This document shows, piece by piece, positions 33,601-52,100 of a DNA stretch of 64,000 nucleotides. Every line of letters starts with the position of its first letter. Position 1 is the first letter of the stretch. The DNA is from Diadema antillarum. Taxonomy: Eukaryota. The DNA lies in contig NW_027271821.1 in the NCBI RefSeq assembly GCF_040938485.1, positions 124,001-188,000 of the forward strand, given 5' to 3'. The position numbers were made by a program.

Positions 33601-34825
33601 TTTTTAAATGTTAGCATGTATTTTGTGCTCAAACACAAAACTGCTTTGCTTGGATCGTGAGGATGTTGATACCGTACCGCTATCTCAAGGCGGATGTCAG
33701 AGTTCCTCTGTGATGGGTTAGCTAATTTGTCCCCTTGGAAAGGGACCGCCTCTCTATTCAAACAAAATGGAGCTATCGCTGCCATAGTGCTTTGGGAAAA
33801 AAAAAAGTCTCTAATAAAAGCTATTCTGATTTTTTTTTTAAAGACTCTATGATAGTTTCCTACAATAGTAAAAGTTAAATACCATGATGACGAGATGGCC
33901 ACTGTCAAGAAATTGCCGCTAGTGAGACTTCGTGAGAATCAAATTTTTCTTTGTGACTCAACAAGAATTGTTCCAAGTGATTTCCAATATTTTGGTATAG
34001 TGTAGGCCCTATGAAAGTAAACTGTTCAAAGTTTAATCAAATGACCAAGAATATAGCTTCCAGACATTTTGTCGCTGTTCCGACAAAAAGATACTTCATG
34101 AAGGATCGAGTCACGCTTTTGTAAACATTTTACTTAAAACTTTGGGACTCTGCGTGTGGTGCTTTCTTTTGTTCAAGTATTTGACGCTTCGCCTTATTCT
34201 TATGATTTATTCATAATTACCGAGTAGATATCACTCTTAATCGTCATTATGAACATGTAACAACTTCTATAGAGACATATATAAAAAAAGAAGATATTGG
34301 TTCCCAGCACATAGCCCTTGTACCTTCAGCAGAATAAGGGTGTTGCATTTTTTTTCATCGTTTTTTAGAGGCGACAAGGAATATGGAAAGAGAAACGCCT
34401 GCTCAGCGATGCATCGGTGTTTTATGACAGATGTTACATTCAATATATCAATGTTACACCCACCTGTCACATTTTTCTTCACGGTATCAATAATAGAAGT
34501 CAAATTGCTTCTTTTCTTGCTCTAAAACCCCGCCATGTTTAACTGCTGACGAATGCACAGGTCTACCCATTTCTTCACATGTTGTTGCTCGCATTCATTT
34601 TGCAAATCGATTTCACACTTCAGATATCGCTTCCGACCTATGATTCTTCGCGACGTCTCGAACAGAGATATTTCGACCACGATACTGGGTCACCGAATCG
34701 CCTTTCCTTGTTGCATCTCGCCCTCGGCTTTCCACAAGGGTGCGCATCCTGATGGGGAGTTGGCCACTGCGAAGGGTAAGAATAATAAAATGATATATGA
34801 AATATAAGATATTATATATACACTG

Positions 34826-34884
<59 letters not shown>

Positions 34885-49100: not shown

Positions 49101-52100
49101 TATTCAAGTGTTTTGCACAAGTAGCCCTACACATTAATGTTGTGGCTGCTCTCGAATCTGTACATTATCTGTATAGCACAGCGCTTTTCTTTTCTACTAC
49201 AGGCGAGATGGCACGCGAGGCTGCGGCGGCTGGGGTAGACGGGATCTTGGTCTCGGCTCACGGCGGCAGGCAGCTGGACTCGGTCATAGCCCCGGTTCGA
49301 AAATCATGATTGTACATGCAAATTATCTAATTAGCATTTATATCAGTGCATTGCTACCCGACTTTTAGTTTTACTTTTTTATGTAGAACAGGCCAAGGTT
49401 ATCTTATGGAATCGATTTTATCGTGGCAATCAATTAGAACCTTTAAACTAGTTCTAATCTCCTAGCTTACACTGCATTTTCATCTTTATTCATTTTTTGT
49501 CGGTTTTCATCATTTTCTGCATGCATTTTCTTATTATTATCCTTTTATCATATTATTTGAGAATTGTCATTTCCCTATCTTCATTGATTGCGTCTTAATC
49601 ATATCCAGTCTTGATTCGGGATGAATGGTCGATGACAGTTCCTCATCATCAACTGTCATCTAAATATTATATCTACTCTCTAACACTAGCTTGATGCCCT
49701 ACCGGAAGTGGTGGAAGCTGCATGTGGTACCAACGTAGAAGTTTACGTTGATGGAGGCGTGCGTACTGGAGCGGACATCCTCAAGGCACTCGCCCTAGGA
49801 GCCCGGGCCGCCTTCATCGGCAGGCCGGTGATATGGGGACTTGCATGTGGAGTAGGTTTGACCCTTTCTGTCCAGTTGCCAACGCATCTATACGAGATGA
49901 CATCAGGATTTTAGGATGGTGATCCAACAAGGGTTAATTGACAGAAGTGAGGAGGACGGGGGAAGGTCTTGACCCAAAGGCTCAAGAATTTGGGAATTGA
50001 AATGATAATGTTCATGTGTCTGGTATGCTTTGGTACCTGTGTCAGCATGATGAAGTCTGGAATAGCGTGTTTTGAGATCAATAAGAACCATTAGGAGCAG
50101 GGGAGGGGGGGGGGGTTTCAAGTGATATCTGAATTCTGAATCCTTCCATAGCCTCCAATAAGCAAACTGTTTCAAAATTATAATTGGTTCGTTCTTAATG
50201 AAAATATACGTCAATGTACTCAAGAAATGAAAAGAGAGAAGGTTAAGAATAGAAATAATTGCATGGAATAGTGATCATTCATGTTGTCGACCTTTACTCT
50301 CAAATATCCACAGTGTATCAGACATCGGATTTGGGAGCAGTGTTCACCGAACACTGAACATTGTCCTCATTACAAAAATGGCCTTTACAGTCTTCTGGAT
50401 GTTTCCTGTAATTGTCCATGTCTTTTTCTTTTTCTTTTTTTGTAGGGGGAAACAGGAGTAACAGAAGTCCTAGACATTCTAAAAGATGAATTCAGCCGAG
50501 CCATGGCATTGACAGGTATGTTATGATATACGTATACCTCCGCGGAGGATGATATAACTTGAAATGGAATTTGCTGTTATAAGTAAACATAGTCATCCTG
50601 TGTTTTTTCTTCTGTCTTTAAAATGGATTTAAAGTAGCACCTGATTAAACTTGCTTGTTGTATTTTACTCAAGTACGATTGCATCTGTGCTCGAGTTTTT
50701 AAATTGGTGTTGTTTCTTGATTTCTTTTCTACGACGGATGAAAAATCACGTGCCCGTTTTTTATGTTATGCTGAAAAAAAAATGTATATGAATTCGTATT
50801 TAAAACACCCCTCCTTACTACATTTTATTTTCCTTGGATTTGGAAGTAACACCTATTACAACTGTGTTGCTTTAATCGACAGGTTGTGCCAGCGTTGGAT
50901 GTATTGACAGGTCTCTCATCGTGGATAAAACCAAGATTAGCCGATTATGAAAATGCTTAGTATACGAATCTAAAGGGGACAAAGATGGGTTGTCTTATTT
51001 GTCCTGCTGCTTGTTCCAGAAGTCACATTATTCCTTCAAGATCGTGTTGAATAATGAATTTTAGAGGTGACACGTGTTATGATTGAAAATCTTGACATAT
51101 CACCAAAATGCCTAATGACGTATTTGTTTTTGTGTAAGTGAGTGATTGTGTATATGCTTAATACGATTGTTATGTAATGGCACGACAACACTGAGGTATC
51201 ATTGTAATTAGCGAATTGCTCGAGGGCTTTCTGTGACCTCTGCAATGATATTCCGAGATTCCATATCTAAGCTGTGGAAGCCAGCCATGCTTTATTTTGT
51301 TTTTGCTTGTTTGTTTTTGTTTTGTTTTGTTGTTTTTCTATGTATGTTATAGTCTCCTCAACACTAACACTCTTCTACCTGTTTATAACATTTCTGCGGT
51401 ATCAAAAGTTATACATTAGAATTGTGTAATGGTTCTTACAGGGAAAGAAGGTTGAAGGTATATAGGTACAATTATTGAAGTTAAGGGTGAGGTGGTCTTC
51501 AGGGTTTCATGGTCCAGTAAGTCGAAGTGTAATGCTTAGGAGGATGAATGCAGGTTTAGTAATTGAAGAAAACACATTTCAATAGACAGATTTAAGAGAC
51601 AGTTTATCAAAATTCCATTTATCTTGGTTTATAATAATGATATGATGAGATTGTAGAATGAGCGGGTACATGGATTTAGTGTCAACCATCACCCCTGATC
51701 ATACTGGTATAAGCTTTGAGTTTAGACATAATATAAAGAGAAGAATGATTGTGTGGTAAATAAATCATATTGGATGAATAAATGAAACACAATCATATCT
51801 TTATATGTGATAATGATGCGTTTTTTCGAAGAACTGTTAATTGAAACGGACAGACGGAAGTAAAGAAGAGGGAAGGGTTACGGGAAATAGAATATAAATT
51901 ATTACTTGTTAATTTTCTTGAAATGAATCTGAGAGATTATATGCCATAGCAAATATTCACATGCAAAGTCGAAGGAGAAGAAGAGTAGAGGCGTTTCCCG
52001 TCAAAAAGAAGTTCTCGGGACCGGCAGTTTCCTTCCGTTGTACAGAAATACAATTTACTGATAGTGTTGGGTCTGAATATTTACTTCGTTGTAACTTCAA

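What the first reader, a model, noticed from the sequence alone, without database searches (positions are those of the whole stretch)
34624..49851. Exon-by-exon mosaic identity between the HAO paralogs suggests gene conversion that spares the substrate-specificity exons
Seen: exon 6 is identical for its first 67 nt (5 differences in 92). Exon 7 has 11 differences in 162. Exon 2 has 6 differences in its last 124 nt but 8 in its first 28. In contrast, exon 3 is only about 32/57 identical in amino acids, exons 1, 4 and 5 are similarly diverged, and no intron similarity is evident. Near-zero synonymous divergence is not explained by protein-level selection alone. Established: exons 6-7 carry the FMN/catalytic core (His, Arg, DGGVR), while exons 3-5 include substrate-pocket residues and the variable lid loop. 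Inference: recurrent interlocus conversion homogenises the core while divergent selection protects specificity.
Basis: partly seen in the sequence, partly recalled or inferred. Interest (0 to 1): 0.65.

Follow-up and report, generated by a model that had tools for sequence, protein, structure and literature searches.

The report
Patchy gene conversion between urchin HAO paralogs
Two neighbouring, anciently duplicated hydroxyacid-oxidase genes of a Diadema sea urchin carry three exon-sized patches that stayed almost identical at the DNA level, most likely through ordinary gene conversion between the copies.

Summary
The window holds two tandem 9-exon HAO genes, A (32925-40491) and B (45021-50950). 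B's exon peptides match Diadema antillarum XP_071508798.1 exactly.

Three patches (exon 2 nt 29-152, exon 6 nt 1-67, all of exon 7) have dS 0.14. Everything else has dS 1.40. This unevenness is significant without pre-chosen groups: 1 of 20000 shuffles reached it. Codon usage, GC3 and RNA folding do not explain it.

Exon-confined interlocus gene conversion, long after the duplication, is the best explanation.

- Every 2:2 amino-acid site between D. antillarum and D. setosum groups by paralog: 76 of 76, including 5 of 5 in exons 2, 6 and 7. Most homogenisation therefore predates that species split.
- Only two sites hint at later events.
- Conserved exon 8 is not homogenised.
- Divergent selection was not demonstrated (dN/dS about 0.2).

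This is a known kind of phenomenon and of modest interest.

The parts
32925..40491 (+). HAO paralog A, 9 coding exons: 32925-33073, 34624-34775, 36327-36498, 37011-37116, 37881-38050, 38834-38925, 39456-39617, 39935-40004, 40424-40491 (stop included). It ends in SRL.
   Evidence: Searches give the borders and translations. All exon peptides are exact substrings of D. antillarum XP_071478572.1 (P0005), except for one residue in exon 6 and the frameshift.
45021..50950 (+). HAO paralog B, 9 coding exons: 45021-45163, 46184-46335, 46482-46652, 47309-47414, 48422-48591, 49203-49294, 49690-49851, 50446-50515, 50883-50950 (stop included). It ends in SRL.
   Evidence: All 9 in-frame exon peptides are exact substrings of D. 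antillarum XP_071508798.1 (P0003). Pfam FMN_dh matches exons 2, 5 and 7.
34652..34775 (+). Homogenised patch in A exon 2 (nt 29-152). Its partner is B 46212-46335.
   Evidence: 6 differences in 124 nt against 8 in the preceding 28. pS is 0.165 against 0.86. The change point was reached by 31 of 5000 shuffles.
46212..46335 (+). Homogenised patch in B exon 2.
38834..38900 (+). Homogenised patch in A exon 6 (nt 1-67, identical in both copies). Its partner is B 49203-49269.
   Evidence: 0 differences in 67 nt, then 5 in 25. The change point was reached by 42 of 5000 shuffles. pS is 0 against 0.545.
49203..49269 (+). Homogenised patch in B exon 6.
39456..39617 (+). Homogenised A exon 7 (whole exon). 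Its partner is B 49690-49851.
   Evidence: 11 differences in 162 nt, dS 0.175. No internal change point.
49690..49851 (+). Homogenised B exon 7.
36416..36420 (+). A5 run in A exon 3 with one base more than the reading frame allows. It causes a frameshift, and TAA follows in frame inside the exon.
   Evidence: A exon 3 is 172 nt against 171 in B. The translation runs into a stop. The other A-type proteins (P0005, P0001, P0004) read ..GLKMMQMYIYKNRK.. through this site.
39346..39376 (+). Short island of similarity in intron 6 (partner B 49528-49554). It is the only intron match above chance.
   Evidence: blastn 87% over 31 nt, E 5e-4. Local score 23 against shuffles with mean 12.9 and maximum 17.

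Best explanation
A and B are tandem copies, 4.5 kb apart and in the same orientation, of a peroxisomal FMN-dependent 2-hydroxyacid oxidase. The duplication arose in the Diadema lineage and is old: silent sites outside the patches are near saturation and the introns cannot be aligned.

Long after the duplication, short non-reciprocal exchanges (interlocus gene conversion) copied sequence between the genes in three places: exon 2 nt 29-152, exon 6 nt 1-67 and all of exon 7. This reset silent divergence there to about 0.14.

The tracts stop at or within a few bases of the exon borders. I infer that this is because the introns offer no homology for a heteroduplex. Only the exons that purifying selection on the protein kept most alike remained able to pair, which sustains itself.

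Most of this homogenisation predates the D. antillarum / D. setosum split. The perfectly identical runs may be younger events.

Shown: the silent-site mosaic, the breakpoints, and the exclusion of codon bias and RNA structure.
Inferred: the conversion mechanism, heterology as the tract limit, and the timing.
For: - The three patches have dS 0.144 (12 silent differences over 91.8 sites). Everything else has dS 1.40 (109.7 over 172.8).
- Heterogeneity across exons: chi2 32.9, df 8, p 6.5e-5, with 1 of 20000 shuffles reaching it. The sum of squared runs of unchanged codons was reached by 20 of 20000 shuffles.
- Sharp breakpoints inside exons 2 and 6 (31 and 42 of 5000 shuffles).
- Synonymous changes among conserved codons: 21/127 against 60/140. 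Four-fold sites: 15/77 against 29/60.
- Exon 8 acts as an internal control. It is 87% identical in protein but has pS 0.59.
- Codon-usage model: 35-37% identical codons expected, 83% observed.
- GC3 is the same in both groups, 0.59 against 0.57.
- RNA-fold z-scores run from -0.6 to +0.33. Rfam gave no hit.
- Only exons repeat between the two genes. 7 of 8 introns are at chance level.
- Tree: Diadema A, B and C form a clade beside the single camarodont gene. A and B are each present in both Diadema species.
- Exon 2 is the one exon where A is nearer to B (2/50) than to C (8/50), against the whole-protein tree (B,(A,C)).
- There are two 3:1 sites where the D. antillarum A and B share a derived residue and one D. 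setosum copy keeps the outgroup state. Both lie inside the identical runs: exon 2 aa 16 and exon 6 aa 7.
- A review states that conversion between paralogs is usually reported for exons and that fast-diverging introns may impede it (PMC3966223, passages of section 4.2).
Against: - No nucleotide sequence of a second species or a third copy was available. The classic test, converted segments grouping by species, could be run only on proteins.
- On proteins, all 5 informative 2:2 sites in exons 2, 6 and 7 group by paralog.
- Quartet counts with paralog C are too sparse to be significant. Exons 2, 6 and 7 give AB 2, AC 0, BC 0. The other exons give AB 3, AC 6, BC 2.
- The exon 6 aa 7 site is explained as parsimoniously by a reversal in D. 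setosum A, since C and both B copies also carry Ala.
- There is no GC-biased signature.
- The tracts do not run into introns as unconstrained conversion tracts often do.
- The longest-run test alone is only modest: 351 of 20000 shuffles reached it.
- The choice of patch limits was made after seeing the data.
Confidence: 0.72

Rival explanations
1. Conversion is ongoing and recurrent, and selection for divergent substrate specificity actively removes converted alleles in exons 3-5. The mosaic is then a balance between conversion and selection.
For: - Exon 3 carries the residue that aligns with position 110 of the solved HAO1 chains. It is Ser in B and Gly in A (alignment). That this position sets substrate size is recalled, not tested.
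- Exon 4 and the first 20 residues of exon 5 align with no solved chain, as expected of a variable loop.
- B has a long stem branch, 0.25 against 0.085 for A.
- Zero-difference runs sit inside patches that are otherwise about 5% diverged. With the two 3:1 sites, this fits more than one episode.
- 'Islands of divergence' under conversion have been described for other paralogs (PMC3728101, abstract start only).
Against: - dN/dS outside the patches is about 0.2, so there is no sign of positive selection in a pairwise test.
- 76 of 76 2:2 sites group by paralog across the two species and none by species.
- Conserved, non-specificity sequence (exon 8, the 3' half of exon 5) is not homogenised either. 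Function does not map onto the mosaic.
- Copy A is frameshifted here.
Confidence: 0.2
2. No exchange took place. Silent sites in these exons are held by selection on the nucleic acid itself, such as splicing enhancers, mRNA structure, codon preference or a shared regulatory RNA target.
For: - The three exons are also the most conserved in protein across sea urchins.
- The low-dS stretches stop at exon borders.
Against: - No excess RNA structure (z from -0.6 to +0.33) and no Rfam family.
- GC3 and codon-usage expectations are equal in both exon groups.
- The 5' 28 nt of exon 2 and the 3' 25 nt of exon 6 lie next to splice sites, where enhancers concentrate. They are the saturated parts.
- Selection on every silent site of a 67-nt run is implausible.
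Confidence: 0.08
3. The homogenisation used a spliced template, meaning cDNA- or RNA-templated repair. That would explain why 4 of 6 tract ends coincide with splice junctions.
For: - In exon 2 the identity reaches the 3' junction. In exon 6 it starts at the 5' junction. Exon 7 is covered from end to end.
- The flanking 40 nt of intron are 10-19/40 identical, which is chance level.
Against: - Intron 6 is retained between the two homogenised exons (530 and 395 nt).
- In spliced coordinates the exon 6/7 junction is the most diverged part: 5 differences in the last 25 nt of exon 6 and 4 in the first 34 nt of exon 7. No tract spans a junction.
- Heterology-limited genomic conversion explains the same ends more simply.
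Confidence: 0.05
4. Assembly or polishing artefact. Reads of one paralog corrected the other in the most similar exons.
For: - The abstracts of the published D. antillarum assemblies describe retained haplotypes and, in one, about 11x depth for most of the genome.
- Copy A carries a homopolymer indel that could itself be an error.
Against: - Background divergence of 20-30% is too great for reads to cross-map.
- The exon peptides agree exactly with independent gene models.
- The same protein-level A/B near-identity in exons 2, 6 and 7 is seen in the separate D. setosum assembly, at 4/50, 2/30 and 3/54.
Confidence: 0.03

Closest known systems
Interlocus (ectopic) gene conversion between tandem paralogs with exon-limited tracts, as reviewed for Caenorhabditis paralogs (PMC3966223; passages read)
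   Same: - Tandem copies in the same orientation.
- A mosaic of near-identical and saturated segments.
- Short tracts (67-162 nt here).
- Introns diverged and apparently blocking exchange.
   Different: - Here no tract enters an intron.
- The two copies are otherwise near saturation.
- Only one species' DNA could be examined, so grouping by species is untested at the nucleotide level.
'Islands of divergence' within converting paralogs, as in GOT1 paralogs of the copepod Tigriopus (PMC3728101; only the listing and abstract start seen)
   Same: Diverged segments persist beside homogenised ones, and these are read as candidates for new function.
   Different: - Here the diverged part is the majority of the gene and the homogenised part is the exception.
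- No test for selection was positive.
HAO1 / glycolate oxidase family (PF01070; solved HAO1, glycolate oxidase and mandelate dehydrogenase chains)
   Same: - FMN_dh domain.
- S-x-H-G-G-R-Q-L-D with His at the place of chain position 260 of HAO1.
- DGGVR.
- C-terminal SRL.
   Different: - The residue aligned with Trp110 of HAO1 is small: Ser in B; Gly in A and Ala in C.
- The clade is therefore probably not a strict glycolate oxidase. The role of that position is recalled, and the substrate is unknown.

Membership tests
FMN-dependent 2-hydroxyacid oxidase (HAO/GOX, Pfam FMN_dh PF01070) | Match to the FMN_dh profile above the curated cut-off | tested here: met
   B exons 2, 5 and 7, searched singly, scored 59.6, 31.0 and 74.7 bits. 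The cut-off is 24.9.
FMN-dependent 2-hydroxyacid oxidase (HAO/GOX, Pfam FMN_dh PF01070) | Catalytic His and Arg in the HG-x-RQ motif, and the DGG-x-R FMN-phosphate loop | tested here: met
   SAHGGRQLD in exon 6 aligns with HAO1 chain positions 244-270. DGGVR is present in exon 7 of both copies. The catalytic role is recalled.
FMN-dependent 2-hydroxyacid oxidase (HAO/GOX, Pfam FMN_dh PF01070) | Peroxisomal targeting signal type 1 at the C-terminus | tested here: met
   Both copies end in SRL. That SRL is a PTS1 variant is recalled.
FMN-dependent 2-hydroxyacid oxidase (HAO/GOX, Pfam FMN_dh PF01070) | Intact open reading frame | tested here: inconclusive
   B is intact. A has one extra base in the A5 run at 36416-36420 and then a TAA. 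Whether this is an allele or an assembly error cannot be told without reads.
Interlocus gene conversion | Silent divergence significantly uneven along the paralog alignment | tested here: met
   chi2 32.9, df 8, reached by 1 of 20000 shuffles. dS is 0.144 against 1.40.
Interlocus gene conversion | Discrete breakpoints not tied to protein conservation | tested here: met
   Met for exon 2 (31 of 5000 shuffles) and exon 6 (42 of 5000), where the amino acids are conserved on both sides. Not met for exon 7 (827 of 5000).
Interlocus gene conversion | Converted segments group by species and unconverted ones by paralog | tested here: inconclusive
   Proteins only. In exons 2, 6 and 7, 5 of 5 2:2 sites group by paralog. 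Two 3:1 sites inside the identical runs fit species-specific exchange. Nucleotide trees were not possible.
Interlocus gene conversion | Not explained by codon bias or nucleic-acid constraint | tested here: met
Interlocus gene conversion | GC-biased signature in converted stretches | tested here: not met
   GC3 is 0.597/0.590 in exons 2, 6 and 7 against 0.582/0.565 elsewhere. This feature is supportive rather than defining.

The most novel reading that the evidence does not exclude
The homogenised patches end at splice junctions because the donor was a spliced transcript. On this reading, RNA- or cDNA-templated repair patches single exons of a neighbouring paralog without removing introns.
Probability: 0.05. 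Interest if true: 0.65.

Novelty: new member of a known kind. Interest (0 to 1): 0.3.

Why it matters
- It is a clean, small example of how conversion can persist in only the most constrained exons of an old tandem pair.
- It is a warning for dating duplications and for building gene trees in the expanded sea-urchin HAO family. Exons 2, 6 and 7 would give a far younger A/B split than the rest of the gene.
- It changes no general understanding of gene conversion.

Tried and rejected
- Codon bias: GC3 and a codon-usage model were equal in both exon groups, so this was rejected.
- RNA structure and known RNA families: no signal.
- Intron homology: none in 7 of 8 introns.
- P0002 exon 7 as an A/B mosaic: rejected. 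The 'VR' state is shared by the other B-type copies, and 'AC' is a change private to the window's B.
- The SRL end of the window's B as a conversion from A: rejected. The Ser codons differ, AGC against TCC.
- Quartet site counts with paralog C: too few sites to decide.
- The first careful tree run was killed at its limit. The quick LG+G4 tree was used instead, with SH-aLRT support only.
- Exon 4 alone against solved structures: no significant hit.
- The two papers that hold both 'gene conversion' and 'hydroxyacid oxidase' are, by title, unrelated.
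Full report
**What is there**

Stop-to-stop frames and tblastn of the window against itself show two tandem copies of an HAO-like gene on the + strand and no third copy in the window. Alignment with flanks and inspection of the borders give 9 coding exons in each copy. All borders are AG/GT, the intron phases are identical and both copies end in SRL.
- Copy A spans 32925-40491.
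- Copy B spans 45021-50950.
- The finding's limits are A exon 2 start and B exon 7 end.

Every search used single-exon peptides. Where a full-length sequence was needed I used database proteins as stand-ins.

**Organism and family**

Single-exon searches returned named NCBI proteins of Diadema antillarum and D. setosum.
- All 9 B exon peptides are exact substrings of XP_071508798.1 (P0003).
- All A pieces are exact substrings of XP_071478572.1 (P0005), apart from one residue in exon 6.
- The window is therefore Diadema, most likely D. antillarum.

A quick ML tree of 24 named echinoderm proteins (LG+G4, SH-aLRT only) gave these results:
- It places three Diadema lineages as (B,(A,C)). C lies on another chromosome in D. 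setosum.
- These lineages sit beside the single gene of Strongylocentrotus and Lytechinus.
- A, B and C each occur in both Diadema species.
- The A/B duplication is therefore Diadema-lineage specific but older than the split of the two species.

D. antillarum has further A-type and B-type proteins on the same 1.48-Mb contig (P0001, P0006) and on a 0.67-Mb contig (P0005, P0002). The abstracts of the published assemblies report that both haplotypes were retained. Some of these proteins may therefore be alleles. I could not resolve this.

**Checking the observation**

- Exon 6: 67 identical nt, then 5 differences in 25.
- Exon 7: 11 differences in 162.
- Exon 2: 8 differences in 28, then 6 in 124.

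Nei-Gojobori estimates per exon, using in-frame codons only with split codons dropped:
- dS is 0.37, 0.19 and 0.18 for exons 2, 6 and 7.
- dS runs from 0.82 to saturation for exons 1, 3, 4, 5, 8 and 9.

With the patches delimited at the breakpoints, dS is 0.144 inside them and 1.40 outside.

Statistical support:
- Without pre-chosen groups, the share of synonymously changed codons differs among the 9 exons (chi2 32.9, df 8). 1 of 20000 shuffles reached this.
- A Sawyer-like sum of squared runs was reached by 20 of 20000 shuffles.
- The longest single run was reached by 351 of 20000 shuffles.
- Change points inside exons are supported for exon 2 and exon 6, but not for exon 7 or exon 8.

**Excluding the dull explanations**

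Protein conservation alone fails.
- Exon 8 is 87% identical in protein but has pS 0.59.
- The first nine codons of exon 2 have 8 of 9 residues conserved but pS 0.86.

Codon bias fails.
- GC3 is 0.59 against 0.57.
- Three different codon-usage tables predict 35-37% identical codons under saturation in the patch exons, against 83% observed. In the other exons they predict 37-42%, against 54% observed.

RNA-level constraint finds no support. Fold z-scores run from -0.6 to +0.33 and Rfam gave no hit.

Only exons repeat between the two genes. Seven of eight introns are at chance level. Intron 6, between the two most homogenised exons, keeps one 31-nt island.

**What the second species says**

Among D. 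antillarum A, D. setosum A, D. antillarum B and D. setosum B:
- All 76 informative 2:2 sites group by paralog and none by species. In exons 2, 6 and 7 this is 5 of 5.
It is expected if most exchange predates the species split, which also fits the non-zero dS of the patches.

Eleven 3:1 sites were found for the main pair.
- In only two does the odd copy keep the outgroup state while the other three share a derived one.
- Both of those lie inside the perfectly identical nucleotide runs: exon 2 aa 16 and exon 6 aa 7.
- In both, the odd copy is a D. setosum gene.
- This fits later exchange in the D. antillarum lineage.
- The exon 6 site is equally well explained by a reversal.

Exon 2 is also the only exon where A is closer to B (2/50) than to C (8/50), against the whole-protein tree. 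The polarised quartet counts are too few to be significant.

**Mechanism**

The best reading is short-tract interlocus gene conversion between neighbouring copies in the same orientation. The tracts are confined to the exons that still offered homology.
- Four of six tract ends lie at splice junctions, and the adjoining 40 nt of intron are 10-19/40 identical.
- I attribute this to intron heterology. A review describes the same idea (PMC3966223, section 4.2 passages).
- A spliced template is a bolder alternative. However, intron 6 is retained, and in spliced coordinates the exon 6/7 junction is the most diverged part of the two exons.

The mapping is roughly right.
- Exon 6 carries the His and Arg, and exon 7 carries DGGVR.
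- Exon 3 carries the residue aligned with position 110 of HAO1 chains. It is Ser in B; Gly in A and Ala in C.
- Exon 4 and the start of exon 5 match no solved chain.
- The functional meaning of these positions is recalled, not tested.

Conversion does not follow function, however. Exon 8 and the FMN-binding end of exon 5 are conserved yet not homogenised. dN/dS outside the patches is about 0.2. Divergent selection is possible but is not needed to explain the pattern.

A exon 3 has one base too many in an A5 run (36416-36420) and then a TAA. The other A-type proteins read through that site. This is either a null allele, an early pseudogene or a homopolymer error. Reads would decide.

**What stayed unchecked**
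- Nucleotide data from any other species or copy.
- Expression of either gene.
- Supplements of the assembly papers, which are closed.
- Whether the extra D. antillarum copies are loci or haplotypes.
- The search for 'gene conversion' together with 'hydroxyacid oxidase' found 2 papers. By title, neither concerns this family's evolution.

Noticed in passing
window 36416-36420: There is one extra A in an A5 run of copy A exon 3. It shifts the frame and a TAA follows inside the exon. The other A-type Diadema proteins are intact at this site.
   Followed up: partly
window 34907-35165 and 35501-35759: A 259-nt inverted repeat, 90% complementary with 335 nt between the arms, lies in intron 2 of copy A. 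It looks like a foldback or MITE-like insertion. Intron 2 is 1551 nt in A but only 146 nt in B.
   Followed up: partly
window 18561-19637 (+): An uninterrupted 358-aa frame has a signal-like start and a Metallophos domain (PF00149, 68.8 bits). By recall it resembles a purple/tartrate-resistant acid phosphatase. It appears to be intronless.
   Followed up: partly
window 39346-39376 and 49528-49554: This is the only above-chance similarity in any intron pair. It is an AT-rich 31-nt island in intron 6, between the two most homogenised exons.
   Followed up: yes
proteins P0001, P0006 (same 1.48-Mb contig as P0003) and P0005, P0002 (0.67-Mb contig): D. antillarum has at least three A/B-type protein pairs in the database, whereas D. 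setosum shows one pair on one chromosome. These could be a duplicated pair, copy-number variation or retained haplotypes.
   Followed up: partly
P0009, P0125, P0126: A third Diadema paralog, C, lies on another chromosome in D. setosum. Its exon 6-8 protein sequence is nearly identical to A, for example 2/30, 3/54 and 3/23 differences. Whether C also exchanges sequence with A could not be tested without DNA.
   Followed up: partly
window 40005-40189; P0004: The D. setosum A model (396 aa) reads on from exon 8 into what is intron 8 here. The same frame is open in the window (..ALTGWYTIA..). The model therefore lacks the SRL end. This is probably intron retention or a model artefact.
   Followed up: no
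window 57261-57408 and flanks: An N run is flanked by dinucleotide-type repeats.
   Followed up: no
window 34794-34923, 42370-42493, 46080-46130: Long (TA)n/(CA)n microsatellites lie just after A exon 2, in the A-B spacer and just before B exon 2.
   Followed up: no
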